64,000 nt of DNA, taken from the NCBI RefSeq assembly GCF_009914755.1, contig NC_060927.1; one strand, written 5' to 3'. Each line of letters opens with the position of its first letter. Position 1 is the stretch's first letter. The position numbers and the translations under genes are program-made. This stretch comes from the human T2T-CHM13v2.0 reference genome, Homo sapiens. This document shows positions 4,381-56,114 of this stretch, in pieces. The notes beneath the pieces are model-generated. The model searched no databases. It was not told the DNA's origin and saw nothing but the letters and a program-made list of their open reading frames with translations.

Positions 4381-6313
<1,933 letters not shown>

Positions 6314-7602
6314 CTCATATGGTATTTTAAAACAGTGTTATTTTTAATTTAATTATGACCTTAACTGGTCTCTATTTACATTCTGTGAGTTGTCTCGTTA
6401 TGTCGTTAGGTGAATGTAGAGGCTCCCTTTAGAGTCTTATAAAGGAGCTGTGCAATTTTTGAAATGAATACAAAACTCTGCCACTATGTGTAAGTGTTTA
6501 GTTATCAAATATACACATATGCCAAGTGTGTCTTGTGTAGTGCTTTTGTGATTTTTAAATTTTATCTGTGGTTAATTTTGGGTAAAGAAACAGTGTCACT
6601 GTTTTTCTATTTATTTTTACACTTCTGCTAGCTCTTCAAGCATTCTATCACAGTCTCGTAGCCAGGTTATGGTGGTCCAAGCTGATGGGGCATTCACAAC
6701 TTAGAGCTAGTCAGACTTTAGAGGTAAGTCCTAAGTGTCAGTACTTTGGATATTTAAACCTTTTAGTATTTGACCTCTAACCTATTTTCCTTGAAGGAGA
6801 GAATCTAAGTCCTCCTTATTTTTAGTTATCAGTTAATTTTTACTTGAGTGTATTATGCTTCATTTGCCTTCATTTCTTTTTTACATTTACTATCCCTTCC
6901 TCCTTGTGAACATTTACATTTTAGCAAATGTATTCTGAAAATAATGTAGTAACCTGAAGGGATGATTCTCCTAAAGAGATGATTCTGGTGGTAGAAATTT
7001 TTGGCACTATGGCCTAATTAGGTAAATTTCTTATAGAAACCCTTCAAGTTAAATTTTGTGCATGGCTGTCTGTTCTGCTTCATGTAGAGCTGACTTGCCT
7101 ACATTGAATACTTTTGTTGTCTGTTGATAATTTTACATTAACAAAAGGAATGAAATCTGAATTGCATTTGCCCACAATCCCAAAAGCACATTGACTGAAA
7201 AGGCAATAAGGTTGTCTTGGTAGAACTCATTTTGGAAAATTCTGTAGCTCTGGGTGATAATTTTAAGTGTGTAAAGTTTAGAAGTTGTATGCAGACACCG
7301 TTAAAAGTTGTAGCTAAAACTAAGTTTTCATGAAGTTGGTGAGGATCCGTTGTTGGCTTATTTACTTTTCAACATCAGGATAAAAAATCTGTAATACTAA
7401 AAATGTTAAATAATTTCAGTTGCCAAATTTTCAGTTGAAATGTCAATATATAATTTATTTCTTAATTTGCATGGCTTTTTAGGTCATTTATTATCTGGGG
7501 ATAATCCATACCATGATTGTTAATGCAAGTAAAGAACCATTTGAGGTGACATTTAGGTTTTAAAATATTTTGTATATATTTTTTAATGATAGTATTTGTC
7601 AG

Positions 7603-8208
7603 TTGATGAAATGACGAGGCTCATGAATTTGGAAAGGAGAACTTTATTTCTCATCAGCAGTTGCAACCTGCAGCATGGCCATTCTGACAGGCTGGGAAGC
7701 ATAGCCTTCGGCCAACCAGGAGCCAGAAACTTCAAGGTGTTGGGGAAGGGAACAGGAATTTATGCTGAGTGAAGTGGCTGAATATACGTATTTAATAAGC
7801 ATAGAAGGAGTCATGAATATTTATGAAAGGAGAAACATCCATGCACAATTGAGTTTTATGCCCCTTCATGGGTCCCATGTACAAAAAATGTCAGCGTTAG
7901 CATGATCCAAGGGTAGAGTTTTCAGCCCTCTGACATCAAAAAGTAAAGCAGAGGACACAAAAACCTTTTGGACAGAAGCATCAGGTGGTTGGTTGGTATC
8001 AGTGCTGACATCTTCTGAAGGGCTGGTTTCTGTTTAGCCCTTAGGCTAAATAGTGGTTAGCCAGGGAGGGAGGAGGTATAATGTGGTGTGTCTGATTTCC
8101 CCATCCACTCATGGCCAAGAACTCAGTTTTCAAGGCACTTTGGGGTCCTTGGCCAAGAGATGATCCATTCAGTTGGTTGGGGGACTTAGAATTTTACTTT
8201 TATTCCTC
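7603..8208 (-). mobile_element. ERV1-class solo LTR
   Basis: TG...CA bounded; minus-strand start tgaggaataaaagtaaaattctaagtcccccaacc resembles MER4-group LTRs. Confidence 0.55.
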
Positions 8209-8400
8209 ATGTGTATCTTTTTTTAAATAACTAAAAAAAAACAAAGTTATTTAAAAAATTTTTGGAATCAAAAGTTGTGGGGGTTGATGATGGGAGAAGG
8301 ACTAGAAAACGAAACACATGCTATATCCAGGACTGGACAACCAAGAGTTAAAAGAGTATGATTATTGGCTCATTTTTTTTACTATTTAAATGCAGTTTTC

Positions 8401-8792
<392 letters not shown>

Positions 8793-9124
8793 TCAAATAC
8801 CTTAGAGCAGTTGTTTTCAGAAATCCCAGCTGTAGCCACAACTATTTATACTATTTGAATATCTAGTTAGTCTCTCCATATAATTGGGAGGGAAAGAAGT
8901 TTGGTTGTAGGCAGTCACCAAAGCCTTGAGTGTTAAAACATGAGGTAATGCATATGAAGTGCTTAGAATAGTGACTGACAATAGAACAAATGCTAACAAA
9001 GTTTTGTTCTACTTATAATTTAAAGAGTTGGGGTCTCACTTTGTTACCCAGGCTGAACAGGCACAGTCATGTTGCACTCCAGCCTTGAACTCCTGGGTTC
9101 AAGTGATTCTCCTGTCTCAGCCTC

Positions 9125-10721
9125 TAACTGGCTTATTTCACTTAGCATAATGTCCTCAAGGTTTACCCATACTGTAGCATGTGTCAGAATTTCATTTCTT
9201 TTTAATGCTAAATAACATCCTATTGTATGTATATACCATGTTTTCTTTATCCATTAATCCATGGATAGAAATTTGGATTGTTTCTACCTTTTGGCTATTG
9301 GGAATAATGCTGCTATGAACATTGGTGTATAAATAATCTTTTTGAGTTCCTGCTTCAATTCTTTTGGGTGTGTACTCAGAATTGGAATTGCAGGATTGTG
9401 TGGTAATTTTTTGTTTAATTTTTATGTTAAATTTTTACCAATTTTAATTTTGTAATTTTGTGTTAAACTATTTTGTGTTAAATTTTGTGTTAAACTGCTT
9501 TCCACAGCAGCTGTACCATGTATATTTCCATCAGCAGTGCACTGTGTTCCAATTTCTTCACATCCTCACCAACACTTACTTTCTGATTTATTGACAGTAT
9601 CCATCCCAATGGTTGTGAAATGGTATCATTGTGGTTTTCATTTGCACTTCCCAATGATTAGTGATGTGGAACATTTTCCCACAGGCTTATTGACTATTTG
9701 CATGTATTTGAAGAAATGTCTATTGAGATCCTTTGCCCATTTCAGTCAGGTTTTTTGGGGTTTTTTTTGTTGTTGAGTTGTAGGAGTTATATATTTTGTA
9801 TGATAATCCCTTGTCAGATACATGATTCACAACTGTTTTCTCCCATTCTGTGAGCTACTTTTTCACTCTCTTGATAATAGTGTCCTTTGATGCACAAAAG
9901 TCTTTAATTTTGATGAAGTCTGTTTTATCTCTTTTCTTTTGTTGCCTGTGTTTTTAATGTCCTATCAAAGAAATCATTGCCAAGTCTGATCATCGGACTG
10001 TATTTTCTTCTAAGAGTTTTCTAGTTCTAGCTCTTATGTTTAGGTCTTTGATCTATTTTGAATTAAGTTTTCTATATGGTATAAGGTCAGGGCCCTACTT
10101 TATTCTTTTGCATGTGGACATCTAGTTTTTCCTAGCACCATTGTTGAAGAATGTCCTTTCCCCATTGAATGGTGTTGGCTCCCTTGTCCATAACTATTTC
10201 ACTGTGTATGTGAGGATTTATTTCTGGTCTCCTCTATTCCATTAGTCTGTCTGTATGCTACTGCCTCACCATCAGGAACTATGACCCTTCCAACTTTCTT
10301 CTTTTTTAAGATTGTTTTGTCTATTCGTGGTCCCTTGAGATTCCATATGAATTTTAGGATGGATTTTTCTATTTCTGCAAAAAAAAAAGATTATTGATAT
10401 TTTCATAGGGATTGCATTGAAACTGTAGATTGCTTTGGGTAATATTAATATCTCAATAATATTAAGTCTTCCAATTAATGAATGCAGGATATCTTTCCAT
10501 TTATTTGTGTCTTTAATTTTTTTTCAGCAATGTTTTGTAGTTTTCAGTGTACAAGTCTTACTCCTCCTTGGTTAAGTTTTTCTTTTTAATTTTTTAAATT
10601 TTTTTTGTTTTTTTATATATTTTTCTTTTTATTGTTTTGGTTAAGTTTATTCCTAAGTATTTTTTCTTTTTGATGCCATTGTACATGGGATTTTTAAAAA
10701 AAATTTTATGCCATTGTACAT
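9125..10721 (-). mobile_element. Old L1M 3' region (host of the L1PA insertion; continues at about 16863-17000)
   Basis: Diverged L1 ORF2/3'UTR motifs (tggcttatttcacttagcataatgtcc, ggtatcattgtggttttcatttgc). Confidence 0.75.
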
Positions 10722-10725
10722 GGAA

Positions 10726-16851
<6,126 letters not shown>

Positions 16852-17164
16852 GGAATTTTTTTAAATACCCTTTAAGAATTGTTCTTTATTGGTATATAGA
16901 TTAGTATATAGAAACACAACTTATTTTTGTGTGTTGGTTTTATCTCCTGCAACTTTGCTGAATTTATTCTAAAAGTGTTTTTTAGAATCTTAGTGATGGT
17001 CATTGTCCAGTGCAAGAGTTTGATGTGGATCCTTCTGGTACTATTTTGCTTTCTTGATGAGTAGATACATAAACTTCGATCTACATTAATGCTCAAGATA
17101 TTCATATATGCATAATCATAATTGAATTCTACATATCTTTCCCTTTTTTGACTTCTCAACTTTG

Positions 17165-17219
<55 letters not shown>

Positions 17220-17490
17220 GATAGGGTCTCATAACCTGTCACCCAGGCTAGAATGCACTGGCACAATCACGGCTAACTGCAGCCTTGACCTTCCTGGGCT
17301 CAAGCAATCCTCCCATCTCAGCCTTACAAGTAGCTGGGACTACAGGTACCTGCCACCATGACTGGCTAATTTTTCGTATTCTGTAGAGACAGGGTTGCTC
17401 AGGCTGGTCTCAAACTCCTGGGTTCAAGCAGTGCAACTGCCTTTGCCTCCCAAAGGGCTGGGATTACAGGCTTGAGCTGCTGTGCCTGGC
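17165..17490 (-). mobile_element. AluJ-like element with an (ATT)n microsatellite tail (about 17168-17219)
   Basis: Pure trinucleotide run followed by a diverged Alu. Confidence 0.82.
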
Positions 17491-17620
17491 CAACTTTCTG
17501 ACTTTTAAAAATATTATATGTATTTGTGAAATGCAAAAAAAACATAAAGGATAGTACAGAAGACATTTCTATCATGTCATACATATTTAGGAAGAGCCCC
17601 TCGTATGGCATAGTTAAGAG

Positions 17621-19476
17621 GTTTTTGTTTGTTTGTTTGTTTTATTGATCATTCTTGGGTGTTTCTCCCAGAGGGGGATTTGGCAGGGTCATAGGACAAT
17701 AGTGGAGGGAAGGTCAGCAGATAAACAAGTGAACAAAGGTCTCTGGTTCTCCTAGGCAGAGGACCCTGCGGCCTTCCGCAGTGTTTGTGTCCCTGGGTAC
17801 TTGAGATTAGGGAGTGGTGATGACTCTTAGGGAGCATGCTGCCTTCAAGCATCTGTTTAACAAAGCACGTCTTGCACCGCCCTTAATCCATTTAACCCTG
17901 AGTGGACACAGCACATGTTTCAGAGAGCACAGGGTTGGGGGCAAGGTCATAGATCAACAGCATCCCAAGGCAGAAGAATCTTTCTTAGTACAGAACAAAA
18001 TGGAGTCTCCTATGTCTACTTCTTTCTACACAGACACAGCAACAATCTGATATCTCTATCTTTTCCCCACATTTCCCCCTTTTCTATTCCACAAAACCGC
18101 CATCGTCATCATGGCCCGTTCTCAATGAGCTGTTGGGTACACCTCCCAGACGGGGTGGCGGCCAGGAAGAGGGGCTCCTCACTTCCCAGAAGGGGCGGCC
18201 GGGCAGAGGCGCCCCCCACCTCCCGGATGGGGCGGCTGGCCGGGCGGGGGCTGCCCCCCACCTCCCTCCCGGACGGGGCGGCTGGCCGGGCGGGGGGCTG
18301 CCCCCCACCTCCCTCCCGGACGGGGCGGCTGGCCGGGCGGGGCTGCCCCCCACCTCCCTCCCGGACGGGGCGGCTGGCCGGGCGGGGGCTGCCCCCCACC
18401 TCCCTCCCGGACGGGGCGGCTGGCCGGGCGGGGGCGGCCCCCCACCTCCCGGGCGGGGCGGCTGCCGGGCGGAGACGCTCCTCACTTCCCAGACGGGGTG
18501 GCTGCCGGGCGGAGGGGCTCCTCACTTCTCAGACGGGGCGGCTGCCGGGCGGAGGGGCTCCTCACTTCTCAGACAGCACGGCTGCCGGGCGGAGGGGCTC
18601 CTCACTTCTCAGACGGGGTGGCTGCCGGGCGGAGGGGTTCTTCACTTCTCAGACGGGGCGGCTGCCAGGTAGAGGGGCTCCTCACTTCTCAGACGGGGCG
18701 GCTGCCGGGTGGAGGGGCTCCTCACTTCTCAGACGGGGCGGCCAGGCGGAGACGCTCCTCACCTCCCAGATGGGGTCGCGGCCAGGCAGAGGTGCTCCTC
18801 ACATCCCAGACGGGGCGGCAGGGCAGAGGCGCTCCCCACATCTCAGATGATGGGCAGCCGGGAAGAGACGCTCCTCACTTCCCAGATGGGATGGCGGCCG
18901 GGAAGAGGCGCTCCTGACTTCCCAGACTGGGCGGCCGGGCAGAGGGGCTCCTCACATCCCAGACGATGGGCAGCCAGGCAGAGACGCTCCTCACTTCCCA
19001 GGCAGGGTGGCGGCCGGGCAGAGGCTGCAATCTCGGCACTTTGGGAGGCCAAGGCAGGTGGCTGGGAAGTGGAGGTTGTAGCTAGCCGAGATCACTCCAC
19101 TGCACTCCAGCCTGGGCAACATTGAGCACTGAGTGAACGAGACTCCGTCTGCAATCCCAGCACCTCGGGAGGCCGAGGCTGGCAGATCACTCACGGTTAG
19201 GAGCTGCAGACCAGCCCGGCCAGCATAGCGAAACCCCGTCTCCACCAAAAAAATATGAAAACCAGTCAGGCGTGGCGGCACACGCCTGCAGTCGCAGGCA
19301 CTCGGCAGGCTGAGGCGGGAGAATCAGGCAGGGAGGTTGCAGTGAGCCGAGATGGCAGCAGTACAGTCCAGCTTCGGCTCGGCATCAGAGGGAGACAGTG
19401 GAAAGAGAGGGAGAGGGAGACCATGGGGAGGGGGAGGGGGAGAGGGAGAGGGAGGGAGAGGGAGAGGGAGAGGGAC
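17621..19476 (-). mobile_element. Full-length SVA retrotransposon (older SVA_B/C-like)
   Basis: (CCCTCT)n hexamer on minus at about 19425-19475; Alu-like domain about 19020-19420; GC-rich VNTR about 18150-19020; SINE-R about 17645-18140; A-rich tail; TSD TAGTTAAGAG at 17611-17620 and 19477-19486. Confidence 0.95.
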
Positions 19477-20565
19477 TAGTTAAGAGTTTTTTAAGAAAAT
19501 ATTCACTCAGTTTTTATCTACTCATATCTTAAGGAATTGAAGTGGTCCAGGAAATCTTTGTACAGGAATAGGCCCAACATAAGATGGGTGGAAGAAAACA
19601 ACAATACATACAATCATAGGAAAGAAAAAAGACTTGGTATAACATTAAATTTAAAATACAGTGAGGAAAAAGAAGAAATTGCTGTGGGAACACTCCCAGA
19701 ATATAGGAAGAAGTTTCAAAAGAGATGAAAAATCTGGCATCAAAGATATTATAAATAGCTTATAAAAATACAATCTTGAATCATAGGCTTTCCTAAAGAA
19801 GAAAACAGAAGTAATAATATATCAAGTTTCATAGAAAAAACTTTCTAGATCCAGAAGAAAATTAGGTTGAATGAAAAGAGGGCCAATTTGAAGGTATATC
19901 ATAATAAGTTTGCAAATATCAAGAATAAGGATATACTTCTTCAAGCATTTAAATATGAGAAAATGACAACAAAAATCAAAGTAACCTTAGTTTTCTTCTC
20001 TGTATATAGTATAGCAATATTTATAAGGGTTTAATAAATAGAGCTAAAATATTTAATGCCTAGACAAGATGTTCATTTATAAAGAGAACATAGACATACT
20101 CAGACCTGAATAATTACATAAAATATTTCTCCCAAATATTTCTTTTAATACAAAAGTTCTTAAAGATCATTTCTGGATCAGAAAAATGGGTCAAAATTAA
20201 AACAATTTACAAGAATTTTGTGGTTAGAAAGTAATGAGTAGCTGACACAAAAGTCTCTAAGACATTGTGAAATGAAAAGAGTAATGCATATACTATAACC
20301 ATATCTATATTTAAAGAAAGACTTTAAAAGACTAGCACATACATAAACACACAAACACACACAAAAAGCAGAATGGTGGTATTGTCTCACTCTGGTGAAG
20401 GACAGTGGAAGGAAACAAGGAGAACCTTCTAATTCTTTATGCATTTGTTTTGTTAGAATATTGTGCAAAGTGTTTAGCTGTTGTGTGATCTCTCCATAAA
20501 GGCAGAGTTTATTATGATTGTGAAAATCAGATAAAAGTTAAAGAATGTACAAAACTAAAGTAACC

Positions 20566-21365
<800 letters not shown>

Positions 21366-21616
21366 AGAGATAAGATGCCAATATATTATTACTATTTGTA
21401 TTGGTGGTTCTAGGCAATATAACAAGGAAAATAAATTTCAAGTCCTAAGAATTGGAGAGGAAAAAATGAAAGTGTAGTTATTCGTCATGTGTATAGAAAC
21501 CCCAAAGAATCTATAGATGAAATATTCAAAGTAAAAAGTGAGAATTAATAATTTATTAGGCTATAAAAGTCTCAACAAATTTCATAGGTTCACATTACAT
21601 AGAATGTTATAGTGGA

Positions 21617-23028
<1,412 letters not shown>

Positions 23029-23029
23029 A

Positions 23030-24230
23030 TGGAATTAAGCTAGATATCAGTAACAAATAGTAACTAGAAAATTCCCAAATGTTTGATAATTAGGCAGTAT
23101 ACTTCTGACTGAAAGAGAAATTCACATTAGAAAATATTTTTAACTGAGTGATAATGAAAATATTACATATCAAAATGTAGGTTTCCTGTGCTGAGAGGGA
23201 AATTTTTCACCTTAAATGCATCTCTTGAAAGACTGAAAATCAAGGAATAGTGACCTAAAGTATTCATCTCAAGAGGTTAGAGAAAGAACAGCAAAATTGA
23301 AGCCCAAGGTAGGTCAAAGTGGATATTAGTAAAACTGGAAATACCTACAATAAAATTAACAAAGCCAAAAGTTAATTGTTTGAAAAGTTATTTAAATTGA
23401 TAAGCCCCTCATAAAATCGAGATGAATTAAAAAGGAGATATTACCAGAGAATATGACATTAGAAAGAGAAGGGGATTTTCTGAATAACTTCACCAATAAG
23501 TTAGAGAATTTGGGCTTAAAAATGAGCAAATTATTAGAAAAACATAGATTACTAAAATTGACACAAGAAGCAGTAAATCAGAATGGTACTATCTTTATTA
23601 ATGAAATTGAGCTTATTACTAAAAACCCAACAAAATAAACTCCAGAACCAAATGTGTTTACTGGTGAATTCTTCCCAACAAAGGTAGAAGTGAAAACCTT
23701 TTAGGTTGTTTATAAGGGTAGTAAACCTGATACCCAAAACTAACATTTTTTAATACCAAAACCCAACAGGAAATATAAGAAAGAAAAATAAATACAAGAA
23801 AGAATAATAAATCATGATGAATTGGGTCTATTCAATGAATGAAAGCAAGCTAGGTTTAACATTCACAAATCAATGATAGTCATCATATTTATAAAAATAA
23901 TAGGTAAATTTAATAAAAGTGGCTAGACACAAGAATTAATGTACCAGTGTCATTAGCACAACATTGAAAGGATGATCTGTTAAAAAGTAATTGATGAATG
24001 ACCTAATCACAAGTTCTGTTCTTGGAAGGTTAAAGTTAATATTATAAAATAGAGGGAGAAAATGTTTGCAGATTAATCCTTGATAAAAGGACTTACATCC
24101 AGCATATATTTTTAAAAACTAAACATTCACTAATTAGACAACCCAATTTTTTTAATTGGCAGAATTTTAATAGACATGGCTCCAAAGAGGATATATGGCA
24201 AATAAATACATGAGAAACGGATTTTTAGCC
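23030..24230 (+). mobile_element. Degraded old L1M ORF2 fragments
   Basis: ORF2-like peptide relics (NKLENL...KLLEKHRLLKLTQE). Confidence 0.55.
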
Positions 24231-24812
24231 ATTTGTTAAACCTCTATGGGCCCTCTGGTTCCAGAGGGAATTTAATTAATTTTTAAGTTCAAAGTAATTT
24301 TGTTTTTTAAAAAGTGATTTCAGCTCTGTGTTTTGCTGCTGTTCCTCCTGTAAGGTAATGAATGGTCTTTGTAATCCAGTGTCCCGACATCCCTACCACC
24401 CACATGAATACCTTTTCTGCGTGGCCAGTAGACAAGGTCGGCAGGTGGATGTTGTCATCTTAACTGGGGAATCATGAACTGGCAAGAAGGGCTGTTCTGG
24501 CCCATGGCAAAGTCAACACTGAGTGTTCTTTCCCAAAGCTGCATTTTTATAAGACTGCTTTAAGGGGAGAATTACATGAAATGGAAACAGGCATCTGTAG
24601 TGGACCATTTGAAAAGCCCTTTATTTTCAGTTGTGACTTAACCAGCTGCCATTTGTACAGCATTTGAATCAGGAGTGAGACTAAGATTTCCTAACAGAAT
24701 AATTTGAAGACTGAAAGAATTACATTAGGACTCTGTAACATCAGGAACTATTTTAGGGGAAGGTTGTAGTGGGTTTCCTATGAGTTTTCACACAAGGCTG
24801 TCATGTGAGAAT

Positions 24813-25145
<333 letters not shown>

Positions 25146-25713
25146 TCAGGTCAATAATAGGGAGATAGAGTGAAAAAGTCAGTTAGCCTGGGAAAAGAGG
25201 CTTCTTTCTTTAACTGTATGGAGGATTTAGTGAGAGGGAATGCTAGAAGAAGGTCAAAACAATTGTTACAGTGTGTCTTGTGTTATACACAAATATGCCT
25301 TACTCACCTTCAACTAAATGCATGCAGTAAACCAAAAGGAATGCAGTTCTACCTACTACCTCTCCCCATCTCCCACCCCCATGTTTTTCATTCTTCTAAC
25401 TGAATGCACATTGGGAGAGACTTGTGAAAAAGAATGTAAGAATAATGTAAAGCCTTTCCCAGTCAACGACAGAAATGAAATGCAGTTAAGTGGTAGTAGC
25501 TTTGTAAGACATCCTTGAGTAAGAAATTAAAGACTCAACTGAGAGATCTAATTGTTCAGTTATCTTAGGGTTATGAATATAGATAAAACATTTTGAGTGT
25601 TTAAGGAATTTTTAAGGGTAATTTTAACTTTTGTCTAATCCCTGAATAATTTGCAATGCCACTACACTAAAATATGGAATCAGATCTGGTTACATCAAAC
25701 TTAAACAAATATA

Positions 25714-25915
25714 CAGCATCCACTCTTTTAGCTTCCCTGGGTCACACTGCAAGAAGAAAAACGGTCTTGGGCAACAGATGAAATAAACTAACACTGTGAT
25801 AGCTGATAAACTTAAAAAAAATTGCAAAACACTTTCATAATGTTTTAAGGAAGTTTACAAATTTGTGTTGGGCCACATTCAAAGCTGTCTTGGGCCACAG
25901 ATTGGACAATGCTCG
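25714..25915. mobile_element. MER30 (hAT-Charlie) DNA transposon
   Basis: gcttccctgggtcacac...gtttacaaatttgtgttgggccacattcaaagc matches the recalled MER30 consensus. Confidence 0.7.
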
Positions 25916-26692
25916 TTTTTCTTTTCCCATTTTGACCTCTAAAACATTTCTTGAGGTATAAAAATTGTTAAATCTTTTACCTAAAGATAATGTTCCTTTT
26001 GAAGTGATTGTTTTAGACTTAAATAAGTTGGATGGTTTTTAATCTGGTTAGAATGTAGGAGGACCTGAGATAGAAGGATCTTTACTTTTTGTATAAATAT
26101 TTCTTCTGATCAAAACAGTGAGTTGTAAACTATGAGCTTTGTGATCTTTTCTGGTAAAAACAAGGGAAGAAAGTAACATTGTGAGGTATATCGTCATTGT
26201 AGGATTCTGTCAAACAGTTTTTCTTAATTATGTCTTGTAGTTATTTCATGTAATGAAATGTTTTGTTGTTTGCCTGTTGCATTTCAGAAGAATTTGAGTA
26301 GAATATATTTTTTTCCTTTTTTAAAAGAGTATCCTAAACTCATCAATTAAAGTGGCAGCAAACTTTTATGCTACTGTTTTCATTTTTTACTTTTTCCTTA
26401 AGATTCAAAGACTCGTTCTGGACACAGTATATTTTTGTTATTGAAACATCATAGGCTGTGATAGAGCTGTAGTAGCAGAAACCTAGAAGACAGAGGTTCT
26501 CCTAGAGAGAGACATGATTCAATAGGGAAAGTCTCTTGCTCTCACACATCTTTCTATATTCTCCTTGTTCTTGGTCCAAAGACAATATTCCAAATGTTGT
26601 ATTCCAAAGCCAAATGTAAAACAATATTCATCTGTTTTAAATTAATAACTCTTTCAGCCTCTAAAAGAGACTTAGAATTTTGAAAAACAATA

Positions 26693-26985
26693 TTTTTGAG
26701 ACAGGGTCTCACTCTGTTGCCCATGCTGGAGTGCAGTGGCATGATTTCAGCTCACTACAACCTCCACCTCCCGGGTTCAAGTGATTTGTGTCTCAGCCTC
26801 TCAAGTAGCTGGGATTACAGACATGCACCACCACAGCTGGCTAATTTTTTTTTTTTTTTTTTAGTAGAGATGAGATTTTGCCATGTTGGCCAGGGGCTGG
26901 CCTTGAACTCCTGGGCTCAAGTGATCTGCCCATGTCAGCCTCCCAACATGCTGGGATTATAGTCATGAGCTGCTGCATCCAGCTG
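26693..26985 (-). mobile_element. Alu (J/S) antisense, about 300 bp upstream of exon 8
   Basis: Reverse-complement Alu. Confidence 0.85.
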
Positions 26986-27289
26986 AATTTTGAAAGTCTT
27001 TTAATTGTTTTGGAGAAAGAATTTTCTGTTTTTCATTAGAAAATTCCCTTCCCTTACACTTAGATATCTTATTATATATCTCTGATCTAGTATATTTAAA
27101 ATATGATTCTGAGAATCAGAATATATCTACTTAATTCTTTGAATTCAAATTCGTTTGAAGTTATTGCTCCTCTTACAGATAAATGCCTCAGTGGATTAAA
27201 TCTGTATGTTACTTTGGCAAGATTTGCACATATTAAGTGATTAGAAAAAGAGAACTGAACTTTAGATGGCTTTTATGGCTGTTGTTTAG

Positions 27290-27421
27290 GAAACAGTACT
27301 GCTGGAGCACCCTTTCAGTGCTGTGAAACAAGAACTGCAGAGAAAATGGATTGAAGAGTTGAATAAGCAAATAGAAGATGACCGTCAAAGAAAAATAGAG
27401 GAAAAAATTATATATTCAAAG
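27290..27421 (+). CDS. CCDC66: CCDC66 coding exon (probably exon 8), 132 bp, ETVLLEHPFSAVKQELQRKWIEELNKQIEDDRQRKIEEKIIYSK
   Basis: gtttag|GAAACA acceptor and TCAAAG|gtaact donor; phase 0-0; coiled-coil peptide. Confidence 0.93.
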
Positions 27422-27810
27422 GTAACTTATGAGGTTTTGTGGCTATAAAAGAAAAAATAAAATCAAAGTCTTTAATCAATTAAAACTAGAAGTATTCTGA
27501 AACTCTTGACAAGACCAGAATATTCCATTTATTCCACATTTGCCCATGTGAACCTGTTTCATTGAATGCATTATGTGATGTTGCATAGCTTCTTACAACT
27601 TTTTAGAAATTTCCTAATTCTTTGAATTTCTCAAATTTTCAAAGCTAGTTATCTATATGTATAAGGACTCTAAACAGTACAGTCTTGTTAATTTTTATGA
27701 TGCTTATTCTGCTCTAAGGTGACTTTTAGAAATCATCTTTGGTTGTCATTTAGAATTATATATGAGAATAATTGGAAAAATTCTTAGCAATTCTTATTTG
27801 TCATCATTAG

Positions 27811-28061
27811 GGTGAGGAACATGACAGATGGGCAATGCACTTTGATTCATTAAAGAGTTATCCTGGTTCTCAATCTCAGCTGTTCTCTCGGTCAACACAC
27901 AAACAACCTGAGTACTTCTGTGTCTCTCCTGACACTCAGGAGCTGGCTGATGTCAGCAGTGTTTGTACACCTACAACCGGAAGCCAGGTTGAACCTTCAG
28001 AGGAGGAGCATATAGCAAAACCTATTAAGGATGTGGTTATGGCAAACAGTAAGAAAACAAA
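27811..28061 (+). CDS. CCDC66: CCDC66 coding exon (probably exon 9), 251 bp, GEEHDRWAMHFDSLKSYPG...ANSKKT
   Basis: cattag|GGTGAG acceptor and ACAAA|gtaagt donor; ORF 27835..28065. Confidence 0.93.
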
Positions 28062-28263
28062 GTAAGTTCATGCTTATGTATTTATTGACTTTTCAGAAAG
28101 TCTGTGTGCTTTAGTAAGACTGTTGTTATGTCTAATTGGTTTCAGGTTTGGTATTTGTCTTTGAAATAGAAATAATTAGTAGATTTATCCCAAACAAAAA
28201 TGATTTAGCTTGTTGAATCTACCTTTTTGAGGTTTTGAATAGCTAATGTATGTATCTTGCCAG

Positions 28264-28348
28264 CTTTCTCCGTTCTATGACTGCTCTCTTGGACCCAGCT
28301 CAGATTGAGGAACGAGACAGACGACGACAAAAACAATTAGAGCATCAG
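28264..28348 (+). CDS. CCDC66: CCDC66 coding exon (probably exon 10), 85 bp, NFLRSMTALLDPAQIEERDRRRQKQLEHQ
   Basis: ttgccag|CTTT acceptor and CATCAG|gtattg donor (ends phase 0). Confidence 0.93.
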
Positions 28349-28724
28349 GTATTGCATTGTTAAACATTGTTCTTTACCTTAATAAGTAACAGTCATGGTG
28401 AACATATACCTAAGTAAATGGAAATTTAAATTCTGATGTAAACTTTACAGCATAGGTCCTGTCCAGTTGTGTCACGAATCCAATCCCTACCACAACTGGC
28501 ATTGTAATATTAGAATTAGCTTATCAAATGCTACAGCCACCTGCCTTCCAGTACAGAAGGTCTTTAATATATTAAGTTGTATATGTGAATTTGTGTTGTC
28601 TTAGGTTAGTACTGGTTTTTTTTTTTTTCATCAATTTATTTCTCCTGAGTTCTGTTTAAGATGAGAATTCATTCTTTGAATAGGGATTGAACTAGAATTA
28701 TGACTAAGAAATCTAATGCATAAT

Positions 28725-29019
<295 letters not shown>

Positions 29020-29429
29020 CTAATGCATAATATAAGAAAGGAGGCTAAAATTAAAATTAAAACTTCCTGTCCTGATTTTAGCCTAATGCTAAAGGGACTT
29101 TAATATCTGCATAATTCTTCAAATCCTTTGATATATGAATTTGGCATCATTAATGTTATGCTTAGTCAGTGAGCAGACATTTGCAGAGCATCTGCTACTT
29201 AACAGGCACTATGCTAAGCACTGAGATTATTTCTTCAGTTTTTTTTAATACCATTTCCTCCAGTAGCCCTCCTAGGGTTGAAGAAAAGGCATGTAGAACT
29301 TGACAGTACAAATGGGAGATGGGAGAAATGCATTGGAAATTTGACATTTCCACTTCACTTATATAAATAATACTTTCAGTATGCTGATAAAAACTTATTT
29401 CTACAGTCACCAAACTAATGCTTCATGGA

Positions 29430-41066
<11,637 letters not shown>

Positions 41067-44000
41067 ATCTTCTAGAATTTTTATAGTTTCAGGTCTTAGG
41101 TTTAAGCCCTGAATCCATCTTGAGTTGATTTTTGTATAAGGTGAGAGATGAGGATCCAGTTTCATTCTCCTATATGTGGCTAGCCAATTATTCCAACACC
41201 ATTTGTTGAAAAGGGTGTCCTTTCCCCACTTCATGTTTTTGTTTGCTTTGTCGAAGATCAGTTGGCTGTAAGTATTTGGGTTTATTTCTGGGTTCTCTGT
41301 TCTGTTCCATTGGTCTATGTGCCTATTTTTATATGAGTACCATGCTGTTTTGGTGACTGCGGCCTTATAGTATAGTTTGAAATCAGGTAATATGATGCCT
41401 CCAGATTTGTTCTTTTTGCTTAGTCTTGCTGTGGCTATGTGGGCTCTTTTTTGGTTCCATATGAAGTTTAGAATTGTTTTTTCTAACTCTGTGAAGAATG
41501 ATGGTGGTATTTTGATGGGGATTATGTTGAATTTGTAGATTGCTTTTGGCAGTATGGTCATTTTCACAATGTTGATTCTACCCATCCATGAGCATGGGAT
41601 GTGTTTCCATTTGTTTGTGTAATCTGTGATTTCTTTCAGCAGCGTTTTGTAGTTTTCCTTATAGAGGTCTTTCGACTCCTTTGTTAGGTATATTCCTAAG
41701 TATTTTATATATTTTTTTGCAGTTGTGAAAGGGCTTGAGTTCTTGATTTCTCTGCTTGGTCGCTGTTGGTATATAGAAGAGCTACTGATTTGTGTCCATT
41801 AATCTTGTATCTGGAAACTTTGCAGAATTATTTTATCAGTTCTAGGAGCTTTCTGGAGGAGTCTTACAGACTCCTAAGGTAAACAGTTATATTGTCAGCA
41901 AACAGGGACAGTTTGACTTCCTCTTTACTGATTTGGATGCCCTTTATTTATTTCTGTTGTCTGATTGTTCTGGCTGGGACTTCCAGTACTACGTTGAAGA
42001 GGAGTGATGAGAGTGGGCATCCTTGTCTTGTTCCTGTTCTCAGAGGGAATGCTTTCAACTTTTCCCCATTCAGTATTATGTTGGCTGTGGGTTTGTCATA
42101 GATTGCTTTTATTACATTAAGGTATGTCCCTTGTATGCTGATTTTGCTGAGGGTTTTGATCATAAAGGATGCTGGATTTTGTCTAATGCTTTTTCTGCAT
42201 CTATTGAGATGATCATGTGATTTTTGTTCTTAATTCTGTTTATGTGGTATATTACATTTATTGAGTATGTTAAACCATCCCTGCATCCCTGGTATGAAAC
42301 CCACTTGATCATGGTGGATTATCTTTTTGATATGTTGTTAGATTCAGTTAGCTAGTATTTTGTTAAGGATTTTAGCATCTATGTTCATCAAAGATATTGG
42401 TCTGTAGTTTTCTTTTTTGGGTGTGTCCTTTCCTGGTTTTGGTATTAGGGTGATGCTGGCTTCATACAATGAATTAGGGAGGGTTCCTTCTTTCTCCATC
42501 TTGTGGAATAGCGTCAAAAGAATTGGTACCAATTACCTGAATGTCTGGTAGAATGCTGCTGTTAATCCATCTGGTCCTGGACTTTTTTTGTTGGTAATTT
42601 TTAAATTACCATTTCAATCTCACTGCTTGCTATTGGTCTGTTCAGGGTATCTAATTCTGATTTAAGCTAGGAGGGTTGTATTTTTCCGGGTCTTTATCCA
42701 TTTCTTCTAGGTTTTCTAGTTTATGTGTGTAAAGGTGTTCATAGTAGCCTTGAATGATCTTTTGTATTTCAGTGGTGTCAGTTGTAATATCTCCTGTTTT
42801 GTTTCTTAGTGAGGTGTTTGGATTTTCTCTGTTCTTTTCTTGGTTAATCTTGCTAATCTATCCATTTTATTTATCTTTTCAAAGAACCAGCTTTTTGTTT
42901 CATTTGTCTTTTGTATTTCTTTGTTTGTTTCAATTTCATTTAGTTCTGCTCTGATGTTGGTTGTTTCCTTTCTTCTGCTAGGTTTGGTTTGTTCTTGTTT
43001 CTCCATTTCCTTGAGGTGTGACCTTAGATTGTCTGTCTGTGCTCTTTCAGACTTTTTTGATGTAGGCGTTTTAGGGCTATGAACTTTCCTCTTAGCACTG
43101 TCTTAACTGTATCCCAAAGGTTTTGATAGGTTGTGTCATTACTGTCGTTCAGTTTAAAGAATTTTTAAATTTTCATCTTGATTTCATTTTTGGCCCAGTG
43201 CTCATTCAGGAGCAATTTATTTAATTTCCATGTATTTGTGTGGTTTTGAAGGTTCCTTTTGGAGTTGATTTCCACTTTTATTCCACTGTGGTCTGAGAGA
43301 GTGCTTGATATAATTTCAGTTTTCTTAAATTTATTGAGGCTTGTTTTATGGCCTGTCATATAGTCTATTTTGGAGAAAGTTCCACGTGCTTTTGAATAGA
43401 ATGTGTATTCTGTGGTTGTTAGACTAAATGTTCTGTATATATCTGTTAGGTCCATTTGTTCCAGGGTATAGTTTAAATCCATTGTTTCTTTGTTGACTTT
43501 CTGTCTTGATGACCTGTCTAGTCAGTGGAGTATTGAAGTCCTCCACTATTATGGTGTTGCTATCTCATTTCTTAGGTCTATTAGTAATTACAAGTTTGGG
43601 AGCTACAGTGTTAGGTGCATATATGTTTAGGATTGTGATGTTCTCCTGTTGGACCAGGCCTTTTACTATTATGTAATGTCCCTCTTTGTCTCTTTTAACC
43701 ACTGTTGCTTTAAAGTTTGTTTTGTCTGATATAAGAATAGCTATCCTGTTTGCTTTTGGTGTGCATTTGCATGAAATGTGTTTTTCCGCTCACATAAACT
43801 TAAAGTTTAGGTGAGTCTCCTAAGAGGGCAGATGGTTGGTAAGTTCTTATCCATTCTGCAGTTCTGTATCTTTTAAGTGGAGCCTTTAGGCCATTTACAT
43901 TCAATGTTAATATTGAAATGTGAGGTACTGTTGCATTCATCATGCTGTTTGTTGCTTGCGTACTTTGGATTTGTTTTTTGTTTTTGTTTTTTAACTTGTA

Positions 44001-46436
44001 TTTTTGTTTTATAGGTCCTCCTGTGTGATTTATGTTTTAAAGAGATTCTGTTTTGATGTGTTTCCAGGATTTGTTTCAAGATTTAGAGCTCCTTTTAGCA
44101 GTTCTTTTAGTGGTGGCTTGGTAATGGCGAATTCTCTCAGCATTTGTCTGAAAATGACTATATGATGCTTAGTTTTGCCAAATACAAAATTTGGCTGATA
44201 ATTTTTTTGTTTGAGGAGGCTGAAGATAGGGCCCCAATCTCTTCTAGCTTGTAGGGTTTCTGCTGAGAAATCTGCTGTTAATCTGATAGGTTTTCCTTTA
44301 TAGGTTACCTGGTGCTTCTGTCTCACAGCTCTTAAGATTCTTTCCTTCGTCTTCACTTTGGATAACCTGATGACACTGTGCCTAGGCAGAGATCTTTTTG
44401 TGTTGAATTTCCCAGGTGTTCTTTGTGCTTCTTGTGTATGCATGTCTAGGTCTTTAGCAAGGCCAGGGAAGTTTTCCTCAATTATTCCCCTAAATATGTT
44501 TTGCAAGCTTTTAGAATTGTCTTCTCCCTCAGGAACACCAATTATTCTTAGGTTTGGTCATCCGAGCTCTGAATTTCTTTCTTCTACTTGTTCAATTCTA
44601 TTGCTGAGACTTTCCAGAGCATTTCATATTTCTAAAAGTGTGTCCACTTTCTTTGAGCTCTGAATTTCTTTCTTCTCCTTGTTCAATTCTGTTGCTGAGA
44701 CTTACCAGAGCATTTCACATTTCTAAAAGTGTGTCCAAAGTTTCCTGAATTTTTGGTTTTTTCTTTAAGCTATCTATTTCACTGAATATTTCTCCCTTTA
44801 CTTCTTGTATCATTTTTCTGATTTCCTTGCATTGGGCTTCGCCTTTCTCTGGTCCCTCTCTGATTAGCATAATAACTAACCTCCTGAATTCTTTTTCAGG
44901 TAAATCAGGGATTTCTTTTTGGTTTAGATCCATTGCTGGTGAAGTAGTGTGATTTTTGGGGGGGTGTTGACGAGCCTTGTTTTGTTATATTACCACAGTT
45001 GGTTTTCTGGTTCCTTCTTATTTGGGTAGGCTCTGTCAGAGGGATTGTCTAGGGCTGAAGAGTGTTGTTCAGATTTTTTTGTCCCACAGGGTGTTCCCTA
45101 TGTATTACGCTTCCCCCTTTTCCTGTGGATGTTGCTTCCTGTGAACCTAACTGCAGTGATTATTGTCTGTCTTCTGGGTCCAGCCACCCAGTGAGTCTAC
45201 TTGGCTCCGGGCTGGTGCTGGGAGTTGTCTGCACAGAGTGCTTATGTGAACTGTCTGTGGCTCTCTCAGCCGTGGATACCAGTGCCTGTTCTGGTGGAGG
45301 TGGTGGAGGATGCAGTGGACTCCGTGGGACTCCTTAGCTTTGATGGTTTAATGCTCTATTTTTGTGCTGGTTGGCCTCCTGCCAGGAGGTGGTGCTTTCC
45401 AGAAAGCATCAGCTGTAGTAGTGTGTGGAGAGGGACCAGCCATGGTGAGGGCCCTAGAACTCTCAAGATTATATGTCTTTTGTCTTCCGATACCAGGGTG
45501 GATAGAGAAGGACCACCAGGTGGGGGCGGGGCTAGGTGTGTCTGAGGTCAGGCTCTCCTTGGGTGGGTCTTGCTGTGGCTGCTGTGGGGGACGGGGATGA
45601 GATTCCCAGGTCACTGGAGTAGTGTACCTAGGAGGATTATGGCTGCCTGTGCTGAGTCATGCAGGTTGTCAGGGAAGTGGGGGAAAGCCAGCAGTCACAG
45701 GCCTCACCCAACTCCCCCACAAACCAAAGGGCCAGTCTCACTGTGTCCCCCCACCCCCTCAAACGCCTGCAACATCCCCCGAGTCTGTTTCCAGGTATAG
45801 GGCCCAGCTATGAAAGAAGACCTCCCCAGCTGCGAAAGAAAACGGCTTTAGTTCTTCCCCCACCTGTGGAGTCTGCAAGCCCAATTCATGCCCACCCCCC
45901 ACCCCCCACGCCCAGTTCTGGCAAGGAAGCTTCTCGTCCTGTTCAAGTTGTTACAAAGTTCATCTAGAGAAGTAATTCTCCCTGTGGAGTTTTAACCCCT
46001 GCTCCTCTGGCCACCCTCCTGATGGATCCCTGTGGTGCCAGGCAGGGATGGGATCCTTGGGGATCCCACGAGCTCCCAGTGTCTTTCTGCTACTTCCTCT
46101 ACCCATGTATTTCACTGGGCTCGGCTCTCTAACTTGACTCAGCCCCAGGTAAAGTCGGGAGCTTCTCCCACAAAGACTTTCAGCTTCTCCAGTGGGGGTG
46201 TGTGTTCGGGAGAGGAGGGTCTCCCTTTCCCACTTCCACAGTTGGGTCACTCACAGTATTTGGGGTGTCTCCCAGCTCCTGCAGCAGCAGTCTGCTTTCT
46301 TCAGAGGGTCCTCTAAGGATTGCTGGTCTGTTCTTGCAGTTGATCTATAGCTAAAATTCACAATGCAAGCCTCCACATGCTGCTGTGTCTGGAGCTGCAA
46401 TCTAGTCCTGCCTCCCATCTGCCATGGTCCTCAACT
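41067..46436 (-). mobile_element. L1PB-like element (5'UTR, ORF1, most of ORF2), 3' end missing
   Basis: 5' start CATGGCAGATGGGAGGCAGGACTAGATTGCAGCTCC; ORF1 relics at 44030-44933; ORF2 relics at 41067-43900. Confidence 0.8.
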
Positions 46437-47870
46437 CCTATTTCCTTGCTTTTTTACATATTCTGCACCTTGATATCTGCATATCTGGTATAACGATCAC
46501 TTCTTCCGATTTTTTGAATTTGCTTTCATATCTATGATGGTGGTTGGGTAGGCACTTTGGCTTTGATTCTGGGTATGTGCAGTAGTGTAATCTCTATAGA
46601 CTTTTTTTTGGCCGAAAACAGTATCTGTGGTATCTGTAATTTCCTTGGTGGCTTAGGGTGCAGTTGTTCGTGGAGGCTGTGGTAAAGTTTTGTTGTGAAC
46701 GGGGACACCAAATGGACCAGTCGTTAGGTTGCAGGATGCTAGCAGTAGGCTGAGCATGCCTGTCCTTGGGCCCCAGGGCTGTATACACTGGCATCAGTGG
46801 TAGCAGGTCAAGCCAGGCCAATTATTGGGCTTCTAGATGGCTTGCTCAGGTGCTGAGAATGGTGACAGTGGGTTGGGTGGGTGAGTAGGTTTTCAAGCCA
46901 CTGGGCAGCAAACATGGGCAATGGCAGTAGTAGTAGTGGGACAACCCTCTGGGATCCAAGCAGCCAGTGGTGGTGTTGGCGGTGGCTATAATGGGCTGCG
47001 TGGGCCAGTCCCCAGACTTGCAGGTGGCATATGAGGGTGGGTGCCAGCTGTGATGGTAATGGCAGGTTGATTGGGCCCATACTCTAGGAGGAGTGCTCAG
47101 GTGCCAATGGTGGTGTCCTGGGCAGGGCAGTCCCCAGGTCCCTGGACCAATGTGCTTGGTTACTGGTGGAGATGCAGCAAGGCTGGGCAGACCTGCCCCC
47201 GGGTTCCCAAGGTGTTGTGTGCAGTGCTGGCTGTTGTAGGCAGGGGTGGGATGATTTCCCAGGCCACCAGCAGAATGCTTAGGTTGGGGCAGTAGCAGCT
47301 GCATTGTAGCTCTGCTACTAGGGAGGGTGGGTTTGCTTTCAGTGGGTTGCTCTTGCAGATGGTGAATGTCAGTGGGGCTCTAGGGATGTGGAGATGCAGG
47401 GGCTGTTGGGCCCCAGAGCAAGATGCAGGACCACTAGGGACTGGGCTCTCAAAATAGTGCCATGCTACAGTTCCTTAGGTCTTGGGTGTTTGTGGAGCCT
47501 AGTGTGAGCTCCCTCTTGAGCAGTGCTTTCATGTGGTCTCCAGGTAACGCCCTGTTAGTCTTGAGACCCACAAGAGTCAAGGGGCTGTTTGATGGTTAGG
47601 ATTGTAGGAGTCCTTGATGGGCATGTGGATTGCTGGGGATTGCTCACTTTCCTTTTCCTCCAATTAGGCAGCCTCTGTAGACTCCTAGCTAATCCTGTCA
47701 AGACAGGCTGCTTTGCTTTCTTCCTTGCTTTTGATGCTTCCTGTCATGTTGAATTCCACTGTTCTCTGTTAGATCTACGTGAAGTATGATTGTCTACTCA
47801 TTATTTTGGTTCCCCTCTGTGGAAGAGGTGAGCACTGAATGTATCTAGTCAGCCATCTTGAATTCCCTCC
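46437..47870 (-). mobile_element. 5' portion of the L1MA-like element
   Basis: Ends in the minus-strand L1M 5' motif GGAGGGAATTCAAGATGGCTGACTAGA at 47870. Confidence 0.65.
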
Positions 47871-47920
47871 TGCTTAGATTTTTATTTTTGACAATGATTT
47901 ACGTGATTGCTTATGACTAG

Positions 47921-48082
47921 AAAGCCATCACTGCCCAGGTAGAAGAGAAGCGCAGGAAGAAACAACTGGAGGAAGAGCAAAGAAAGAAGGAAGAACAAGA
48001 AGAGGAGCTTCGCTTAGCACAGGAACGTGAAGAGATGCAGAAACAGTATGAAGAAGACATACTTAAGCAAAAACAAAAGGAA
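47921..48082 (+). CDS. CCDC66: CCDC66 coding exon (probably exon 11), 162 bp, KAITAQVEEKRRKKQLEEEQRKK...KQKQKE
   Basis: gactag|AAAGCC acceptor and AAGGAA|gtaggt donor; phase 0-0; E/K/Q-rich coiled coil. Confidence 0.92.
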
Positions 48083-48109
48083 GTAGGTACTTACATTCTA
48101 ATTGTAACT

Positions 48110-56108: not shown

Positions 56109-56114
56109 AATAAA
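56109..56114 (+). terminator. CCDC66: CCDC66 polyadenylation signal AATAAA (ATTAAA variant at 56061-56066)
   Basis: Hexamer about 165 nt after the stop codon, with upstream TGTA motifs. Confidence 0.75.

What the first reader, a model, noticed from the sequence alone, without database searches (positions are those of the whole stretch)
27290..28348. circCCDC66 exon block would be a stop-free infinite ORF
Seen: exons 8-10 total 132+251+85 = 468 nt = 156 codons, begin and end in phase 0 and have no in-frame stop. Back-splicing (…EHQ|ETVLL…) would give an endless reading frame with three in-frame ATGs (AMHF, VMAN, RSMT). Established (from recall): a CCDC66 three-exon circRNA of this size is reported and treated as a non-coding miRNA sponge. 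Inference: rolling-circle translation could produce concatemeric coiled-coil polypeptides, and the linear exon 7-11 skip product would also stay in frame.
Basis: partly seen in the sequence, partly recalled or inferred. Interest (0 to 1): 0.75.

Follow-up and report, generated by a model that had tools for sequence, protein, structure and literature searches.

The report
circCCDC66 stop-free frame: real but ordinary
The three CCDC66 exons that form the well-known circular RNA circCCDC66 do make an endless reading frame when joined head to tail, but this is what about one in three such exon blocks would do, and nothing I could find shows that the circle is translated.

Summary
Exons at 27290-27421, 27811-28061 and 28264-28348 total 468 nt. 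All six borders are AG/GT. Both ends are in phase 0. The circular frame has 0 stops and three in-frame ATGs. These are exons 8-10, and they match the published circCCDC66 / hsa_circ_0001313 in spliced length (468 nt) and genomic span (1,059 nt).

The stop-free frame is not a signal. It follows whenever internal coding exons sum to a multiple of three. In CCDC66, 28 of 91 contiguous coding-exon blocks do so, and all 28 are stop-free circles. Published surveys put host-frame rolling-circle ORFs at 14% of human circRNAs.

I found no evidence of translation. No paper in seven searches links this circle to translation. A large junction-peptide table does not list it. In-frame ATGs are 3 of 9. The circle is not unusually structured (z -0.94). 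The back-splice cuts the conserved CCDC66 Pfam domain at profile position 58 of 154.

An inverted Alu pair lies 320 nt upstream and 391 nt downstream, which explains circularisation.

Verdict: a known circRNA that is a formal, untested member of the known infinite-ORF class. Interest is low.

The parts
27290..27421 (+). CCDC66 exon 8 (132 nt, 44 codons, phase 0 to 0). It supplies the back-splice acceptor.
   Evidence: AG acceptor and GT donor, with an open frame. Exon numbering follows from the hub table (4 exons lie upstream of the window) and from the papers read.
27811..28061 (+). CCDC66 exon 9 (251 nt). It holds in-frame ATGs at 27835 and 28039, and the three 7-mer miRNA seed matches.
   Evidence: The annotated alternative acceptors at 27880 and 27940 keep the frame, giving circles of 399 and 339 nt that are also stop-free.
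28264..28348 (+). CCDC66 exon 10 (85 nt). It supplies the back-splice donor, holds the in-frame ATG at 28277, and encodes PF15236 profile positions 31-58.
27835..27837 (+). First in-frame ATG (-3 G, +4 C). It lies inside the overlapping miR-33 and miR-93 type seed matches.
   Evidence: The seed motifs are recalled, not taken from a tool.
28039..28041 (+). Second in-frame ATG. It has the best Kozak context of the three (-3 G, +4 G).
28277..28279 (+). Third in-frame ATG, in a weak context (-3 T, +4 A).
27833..27843 (+). Overlapping single 7-mer seed matches for the miR-33 and miR-93/17 families.
   Evidence: seeds recalled. The CircVIS paper says the circle interacts with miR-33b, 93 and 185.
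27923..27929 (+). Single 7-mer seed match for miR-185.
   Evidence: seed recalled.
26696..26983 (-). Alu-like (7SL-derived) element, 320 nt upstream of the back-splice acceptor. It is inverted relative to the downstream element.
   Evidence: blastn gave 76.0% identity over 283 nt in inverted orientation. Two sub-threshold Metazoa_SRP matches lie on the minus strand (42.9 and 25.4 bits; gathering score 70).
28724..29004 (+). Alu-like (7SL-derived) element, 391 nt downstream of the back-splice donor.
   Evidence: 28.3 and 51.2 bits on the plus strand. Duplex energy with the upstream element is -391.4 kcal/mol, against -147.6 +/- 7.9 for 30 shuffled partners.
5597..27289 (+). Upstream flanking intron, 21.7 kb.
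   Evidence: Hub table. It holds 9 Alu-like hits (6 plus, 3 minus).
28349..47920 (+). Downstream flanking intron, 19.6 kb.
   Evidence: Hub table. It holds 6 Alu-like hits (1 plus, 5 minus). Of 65 blastn matches between the two introns, 30 are inverted.
47921..49604 (+). Exons 11 and 12 (47921-48082 and 49460-49604). They encode the rest of the CCDC66 Pfam domain, which the circle lacks.
   Evidence: PF15236 profile positions 59-112 (E 4.4e-14) and 113-153 (E 3.3e-14).

Best explanation
This block is the known exonic circular RNA circCCDC66 (hsa_circ_0001313). It forms when the exon 10 donor (28348) back-splices to the exon 8 acceptor (27290). Two features probably favour this: the two roughly 20-kb flanking introns, and an inverted Alu pair lying 320 nt upstream and 391 nt downstream.

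The endless reading frame is a passive consequence of the host gene's exon phases. The block starts and ends in phase 0 and consists only of coding sequence, so it cannot contain an in-frame stop. Most probably the circle is not productively translated in cells. Any biological effect it has would then be that of an RNA.

Shown: the anatomy, the identity with the published circle, and the base rate. Inferred: the role of the Alu pair, and the lack of translation.
For: **Identity.** The circle is described as exons 8-10, 468 nt, with a genomic span of 1,059 nt, and mostly cytoplasmic.

**Base rate.** In CCDC66, 28 of 91 contiguous coding-exon blocks have a length divisible by 3, and 28 of those 28 are stop-free circles. 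Fan et al. report host-frame rolling-circle ORFs in 14% of human circRNAs. Stagsted et al. report infinite ORFs in 8% of AUG circRNAs, and their abstract reports no evidence that those circles are translated.

**No sign of adaptation for translation.**
- In-frame ATGs are 3 of 9, as chance predicts.
- Neither of the 2 IRES-like hexamers named in the passages I read is present (0 of 2).
- The circular MFE is -106.1 kcal/mol, against -100.6 +/- 5.8 for 100 shuffles (z -0.94).
- DRACH motifs number 17, against 11.5 +/- 3.0 in shuffles, which is about 1.8 sd.

**The product would be a fragment.** The back-splice cuts PF15236 at profile position 58 of 154.

**No experimental trace found.** CCDC66 and its coordinates occur in 0 of 4 readable supplementary tables of Fan et al. 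2022. These include the MS junction-peptide table, which does list gene names and chr3 coordinates. They occur in 0 of 2 supplementary files of a colorectal circRNA neoantigen study. In the 4 papers I opened because they combined CCDC66 with translation terms, CCDC66 appears only in the reference list.

**Biogenesis.** The flanking inverted Alu pair is documented.
Against: Absence of evidence is weak here.
- I could not read the original 2017 paper, which is not held.
- One large spreadsheet and the PDFs of Fan et al. were unreadable.
- Supplementary files closed.
- No Ribo-seq, riboCIRC or TransCirc data were available.

Several points favour possible translation.
- Published work shows that circles with infinite ORFs can be translated without a defined IRES, and that they are over-represented among MS-supported circRNAs (about 50%).
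- The circle is mostly cytoplasmic.
- One in-frame ATG has a strong Kozak context (28039).
- The sequence is A-rich (34.6% A), and the DRACH count is somewhat above shuffles.

The sponge model is also thin on sequence grounds. There is only one 7-mer site for each of the three named miRNAs.
Confidence: 0.75

Rival explanations
1. Low-level rolling translation without function. Ribosomes occasionally enter the circle and start at one of the three in-frame AUGs or at a near-cognate codon. They circle until they stall or shift frame. The products are repeats of a 156-residue unit, largely unfolded, and are cleared by the proteasome.
For: The infinite ORF and three in-frame ATGs are present. There are also 7 in-frame CTG/GTG codons. 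Fan et al. showed rolling translation of three endogenous rcORF circles from reporters, and proteasome sensitivity for two of the three. Any frameshift would terminate quickly: the mean distance to a stop is 8.6 codons after a -1 shift and 14.5 after a +1 shift. One in-frame heptamer of the X XXY YYZ form lies at 27310. By my own arithmetic, about 0.3 are expected by chance, so this is not a signal.
Against: No junction peptide for CCDC66 appears in the readable tables of Fan et al.. No paper reports ribosome association. Reporter ladders of this kind can come from linear concatemers.
Confidence: 0.17
2. Functional rolling-translated protein, analogous to rtEGFR. The concatemer, or a single-lap product, carries exon 8's charged helix and the first third of the CCDC66 domain. 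It acts on CCDC66 partners at centrosomes or microtubules. It accounts for part of the oncogenic phenotype now credited to miRNA sponging.
For: A precedent exists: circEGFR, 249 nt, has an infinite ORF and is reported to terminate by a -1 frameshift into an out-of-frame stop. The circle is abundant in tumours and cytoplasmic. With one site per miRNA, the sponge stoichiometry looks weak.
Against: The unit contains at most 58 of 154 profile positions of the only conserved domain, and only positions 31-58 were actually matched. More than half of the unit is low-complexity exon 9. Nothing distinguishes this block from the other 27 stop-free blocks of the gene. There is no experimental hint in any text I searched.
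Confidence: 0.05
3. The relevant in-frame product is linear, not circular. An mRNA that skips exons 8-10 (exon 7 joined to exon 11) would be made alongside the circle. It would encode CCDC66 lacking 156 residues, including the start of its conserved domain.
For: The exon 7-to-11 join is in frame. The general link between exon skipping and circularisation is recalled knowledge, not checked here.
Against: The hub's table does not say whether any of the 41 RefSeq transcripts skips these exons, and I could not check. One search for CCDC66 with exon skipping returned only reviews in its listing. The in-frame property again has a prior of 1 in 3.
Confidence: 0.1

Closest known systems
circCCDC66 / hsa_circ_0001313 (Hsiao et al. 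2017, as described in later papers)
   Same: It has the same three exons (8-10), the same spliced length of 468 nt and the same genomic span of 1,059 nt. It is an exonic, mostly cytoplasmic circle. The three miRNAs named for it (miR-33b, 93, 185) each have a 7-mer seed match in exon 9.
   Different: Nothing differs; this is that RNA. The infinite-ORF property is simply not discussed in any text I could search.
Rolling-circle ORF (rcORF / infinite ORF) circRNAs: circEGFR giving rtEGFR; circPSAP, circPFAS and circABHD12
   Same: It is an internal coding-exon circle whose length is a multiple of 3. It has no in-frame stop, has in-frame AUGs and is read in the host frame. Out-of-frame stops are available for termination after a frameshift.
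   Different: Those circles have polysome, MS or reporter evidence. circCCDC66 has none that I could find, and it is absent from the readable junction-peptide table of the same study.
Alu-flanked back-spliced exons (complementary-sequence-mediated circularisation; DHX9-sensitive)
   Same: It has long flanking introns and a close inverted Alu pair. The Hsiao laboratory reports that DHX9 regulates circCCDC66 expression.
   Different: Whether this particular pair is needed has not been tested. The two arms are only 76% identical.

Membership tests
Exonic back-spliced circRNA (circCCDC66, hsa_circ_0001313) | Canonical splice sites at the back-spliced acceptor and donor | tested here: met
   AG lies before 27290 and GT after 28348. 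The internal sites are also AG/GT.
Exonic back-spliced circRNA (circCCDC66, hsa_circ_0001313) | Boundaries equal to the published circle | tested here: met
   The published description is exons 8-10, 468 nt, with a span of 56628056-56626997 = 1,059. The window gives 468 nt and a span of 1,059. No coordinate lift-over between assemblies was done.
Exonic back-spliced circRNA (circCCDC66, hsa_circ_0001313) | Junction-spanning, RNase R-resistant reads | not testable with these tools
   This is reported in the literature only. The primary paper is not held.
Exonic back-spliced circRNA (circCCDC66, hsa_circ_0001313) | Long flanking introns with inverted complementary repeats | tested here: met
   The introns are 21.7 and 19.6 kb. 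The inverted Alu-like pair lies at -320 and +391 nt. Of 65 matches between the two introns, 30 are inverted.
Rolling-circle ORF (infinite ORF) circRNA | Length divisible by 3 with no in-frame stop round the circle | tested here: met
   The length is 468 nt and frame 0 has 0 stops.
Rolling-circle ORF (infinite ORF) circRNA | In-frame start codon | tested here: met
   There are three ATGs in frame 0, out of 9 ATGs in all frames. One is in a strong Kozak context.
Rolling-circle ORF (infinite ORF) circRNA | Ribosome association or a junction peptide from the endogenous circle | tested here: inconclusive
   It does not appear in the 4 readable supplementary tables of Fan et al. 2022, nor in 2 files of a colorectal neoantigen study. 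No paper was found. Databases and raw data were not available.
Rolling-circle ORF (infinite ORF) circRNA | Concatemeric protein ladder shown not to come from linear concatemers | not testable with these tools
   This needs an experiment. The artefact risk is documented.
miRNA sponge circRNA | Many sites for the sponged miRNA(s), as in ciRS-7 | tested here: not met
   There is one 7-mer match for each of three recalled seeds and none for a fourth. The circle may still bind these miRNAs, but it is not a multi-site sponge by sequence.

The most novel reading that the evidence does not exclude
Endogenous circCCDC66 is rolling-translated from the AUG at 28039 or 27835. The product is a repeat of a 156-residue unit that carries a truncated CCDC66 domain. 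This protein, rather than miRNA sponging, drives part of the circle's reported oncogenic effect. Because the first in-frame AUG sits inside the miR-33 and miR-93 seed matches, translation and miRNA binding would compete on the same molecule.
Probability: 0.05. Interest if true: 0.55.

Novelty: new member of a known kind. Interest (0 to 1): 0.18.

Why it matters
circCCDC66 is a much-cited 'non-coding' oncogenic circle. If it were translated, many sponge-based studies would need re-reading, and the junction peptide could serve as a tumour marker or neoantigen.

On present evidence the lesson runs the other way. A stop-free circular frame says nothing by itself, because about a third of internal coding-exon blocks have one. 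A scan should not score such cases highly unless there is evidence of ribosomes or peptides.

Tried and rejected
- **Special ORF signal: rejected.** The base rate is 28 of 91 blocks.
- **IRES-like structure: rejected.** The circle's MFE is ordinary (z -0.94). The Rfam scan of 26400-29300 at E up to 1 gave 12 matches. None reached its gathering score and none lay in the exons.
- **IRES-like hexamers.** I knew only two of the 97, from text passages, and neither is present. I did not retrieve the full list.
- **Programmed -1 frameshift site.** There is one in-frame heptamer against about 0.3 expected, so it is not informative.
- **m6A motifs.** The excess is about 1.8 sd over mononucleotide shuffles, which is not convincing.
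- **Primary paper.** PMC5910173 is not held.
- **Mammalian conservation of the block.** This was not attempted. The collections on hand hold no mammalian genomes, and phase conservation would in any case be explained by the linear mRNA.
- **Structure prediction of the 156-residue unit.** This was not attempted, because the unit is a spliced sequence that is not read letter for letter from the window.

Full report
**1. The observation**

I read 27150-28450 and translated the three exons. I then joined them in a script.
- The exons are 132, 251 and 85 nt, for a total of 468 nt or 156 codons.
- Each exon is preceded by AG and followed by GT.
- Read as a circle, frame 0 has no stop. Frames 1 and 2 have 8 and 13 stops per lap.
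- In-frame ATGs lie at codons 53, 121 and 133, which are window 27835, 28039 and 28277.

Using the hub's exon table, exon 7 ends and exon 11 begins on codon boundaries. The block is therefore phase 0 to phase 0, and an exon 7-to-11 join stays in frame. It does not occur in the 768 residues of linear CCDC66 encoded in the window. The first four exons lie outside the window and were not checked.

**2. Identity**

The window holds 14 of the gene's 18 exons, so these are exons 8-10.
- The abstract of PMC7140115 describes the oncogenic circle as consisting of exons 8-10 of CCDC66.
- Passages of the review PMC9869039 give chr3:56626997-56628056, 468 nt, hsa_circ_0001313, and a preference for the cytoplasm.
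- Passages of PMC11968963 agree.
- Passages of PMC9185860 say that more than 75% of the circle is cytoplasmic and that it interacts with miR-33b, 93 and 185.

The published span of 1,059 equals 28348-27290+1. I did not lift coordinates between assemblies. The primary paper (Hsiao et al. 2017, PMC5910173) is not held. I therefore do not know whether its authors tested coding potential.

**3. Is the endless frame more than chance?**

No. A block made only of internal coding exons has no stop in the host frame. Once its length is a multiple of 3, the circle is stop-free, unless the junction codon creates a stop.

I enumerated all 91 contiguous blocks of coding exons 5-17 of this gene. Of these, 28 have a length divisible by 3, and all 28 are stop-free circles. 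They include exon 8 alone, exons 9-10, exons 8-11 and exons 8-14.

The annotated alternative acceptors of exon 9 (27880 and 27940) also keep the frame. They give stop-free circles of 399 and 339 nt. The 5'-extended form of exon 8 (from 27179) brings in 4 in-frame stops.

Published genome-wide figures agree that the class is common.
- Passages of the Fan et al. preprint 10.1101/473207 report host-frame rolling-circle ORFs in 14% of human circRNAs.
- Passages of Stagsted et al., PMC6487579, report infinite ORFs in 8% of AUG circRNAs.
- The laboratory that described circCCDC66 built a database that classifies 'endless crossing' ORFs.

**4. Signs of translation**

I looked for features beyond the bare frame.
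- ATGs: 9 in the circle, of which 3 are in frame 0, 4 in frame 1 and 2 in frame 2. There is no enrichment. Only the ATG at 28039 has both -3 G and +4 G.
- IRES-like hexamers: neither of the two named in the passages I read occurs. The other 95 were not available to me.
- DRACH motifs: 17, against 11.5 +/- 3.0 in 500 mononucleotide shuffles.
- Circular MFE: -106.1 kcal/mol, against -100.6 +/- 5.8 in 100 shuffles, z -0.94.
- Rfam, at E up to 1 over 26400-29300: 12 matches, none reaching its gathering score and none in the exons.
- Slippery heptamers: one in-frame X XXY YYZ heptamer at 27310, against roughly 0.3 expected by my arithmetic. After a frameshift a stop follows within 8.6 codons (-1) or 14.5 codons (+1) on average.

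None of this marks the circle as built for translation. None of it forbids translation either.

**5. What the product would be**

Pfam was scanned one exon at a time, by window reference.
- Exon 10 matches PF15236 (CCDC66) at profile positions 31-58 of 154.
- Exon 11 matches positions 59-112.
- Exon 12 matches positions 113-153.
- Exons 8 and 9 match nothing at E up to 0.01. At E up to 10, exon 9 gave only a weak unrelated hit.

The back-splice therefore cuts the only conserved domain after at most 58 of its 154 positions. Exon 9 makes up 84 of the 156 residues. It is 40% S/T/P/Q/G/N and 25% charged. Exons 8 and 10 are 43% and 39% charged. 'Concatemeric coiled coil' is thus a generous description. 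The repeat would be a charged helix, a long low-complexity stretch and a domain fragment.

**6. Literature on translation of this circle**

Seven searches found no paper whose text ties circCCDC66 to translation.
- circCCDC66 with 'open reading frame': 82 papers.
- CCDC66 with 'rolling circle translation': 40 papers.
- hsa_circ_0001313 with CCDC66: 36 papers.
- CCDC66 with infinite-ORF terms.
- CCDC66 with polysome, riboCIRC, TransCirc and similar terms.
- circCCDC66 with 'coding potential', IRES, ribosome and encode.
- CCDC66 with 'exon skipping' and 'circular RNA'.

I opened four papers because they combined CCDC66 with translation terms. In each, CCDC66 occurs only in the reference list. 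A fifth paper had no occurrence in its main text.

In the published Fan et al. paper (PMC9242994), the 4 readable spreadsheets contain neither 'CCDC66' nor either coordinate. One of them is the junction-peptide table. It does carry gene names and coordinates, for example ABHD12, PFAS and 66 'chr3' strings. One spreadsheet was too large to read, and the PDFs could not be read. Two supplementary files of a colorectal circRNA neoantigen study also lack CCDC66. Other proteome and translatome tables that might list this circle were therefore not seen.

**7. How the circle is made**

The flanking introns are 21.7 and 19.6 kb. blastn between them gave 65 matches, of which 30 are inverted. The closest inverted pair is 26693-26970 against 28739-29007, at 76.0% identity over 283 nt. 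It lies 320 nt from the acceptor and 391 nt from the donor.

Rfam shows both elements as dimeric, sub-threshold matches to metazoan SRP RNA, on opposite strands. This is the signature of Alu elements. Their predicted duplex energy is -391.4 kcal/mol, against -147.6 +/- 7.9 for 30 shuffled partners.

A census with the downstream element as query found 9 Alu-like hits in the upstream intron (6 plus, 3 minus) and 6 in the downstream intron (1 plus, 5 minus). This fits the complementary-sequence model and the reported DHX9 sensitivity of circCCDC66. The role of this particular pair is an inference.

**8. The sponge reading**

I used recalled seed sequences, so this is a lead rather than a test of binding. 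The circle has exactly one 7-mer match each for the miR-33, miR-93/17 and miR-185 seeds, all in exon 9 (27833, 27837 and 27923). It has none for a fourth recalled seed. This agrees with the miRNAs named. It also shows that the circle is not a multi-site sponge by sequence. The first two sites overlap the in-frame ATG at 27835.

**9. Comparison with known systems**

The thing itself is already known: it is circCCDC66. The proposed mechanism is also known.
- Abe et al. used synthetic circles.
- circEGFR (249 nt) gives rtEGFR, with termination by a -1 frameshift into an out-of-frame stop (passages of PMC8740365).
- Fan et al. studied circPSAP, circPFAS and circABHD12.

circCCDC66 meets the sequence criteria of that class. 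It has none of the experimental criteria.

A study of 30 infinite-ORF circles found that overexpression vectors yield pseudo rolling-circle ladders from linear concatemers that contain the junction (passages of preprint 10.1101/2021.03.23.433163).

**10. Verdict**

- Best reading (0.75): a known Alu-flanked exonic circle whose endless frame is a by-product of exon phase and which is not productively translated.
- Low-level, non-functional rolling translation: 0.17.
- A functional rolling-translated protein: 0.05.

Novelty: at most a new, untested member of a known kind. Interest: 0.18.

Noticed in passing
window 27880 and 27940 (alternative acceptors of exon 9): Both annotated alternative acceptors shorten exon 9 by a multiple of 3 (69 and 129 nt). 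Both linear and circular isoforms that use them stay in frame, and the circles of 399 and 339 nt are also stop-free.
   Followed up: partly
window 28265-28348, 47921-48082, 49460-49603: The conserved CCDC66 Pfam domain (PF15236) is spread over exons 10, 11 and 12, at profile positions 31-58, 59-112 and 113-153. Both the back-splice and an exon 8-10 skip would cut it.
   Followed up: yes
window 27833-27843: The recalled miR-33 and miR-93/17 seed matches overlap each other and the first in-frame ATG (27835). A ribosome and a miRISC could not occupy this spot together.
   Followed up: partly
window 26718-26843 and 28724-28982: There are sub-threshold Rfam matches to mir-1268 and mir-3135 inside the two flanking Alu elements. 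The best is 58.1 bits against a gathering score of 83. They most likely reflect Alu-derived miRNA families rather than miRNA genes at this locus.
   Followed up: no
window 54459-56164: According to the hub table, the 3' end of CCDC66 (+ strand, last exon 55859-56164) overlaps the long terminal exon of TASOR (- strand, 54459-57893). This is a convergent tail-to-tail overlap, so the two mRNAs could pair.
   Followed up: no
window 27179-27289: The annotated 5'-extended form of exon 8 adds 111 nt that carry 4 in-frame stops. A transcript or circle that uses it would not have the open frame.
   Followed up: partly
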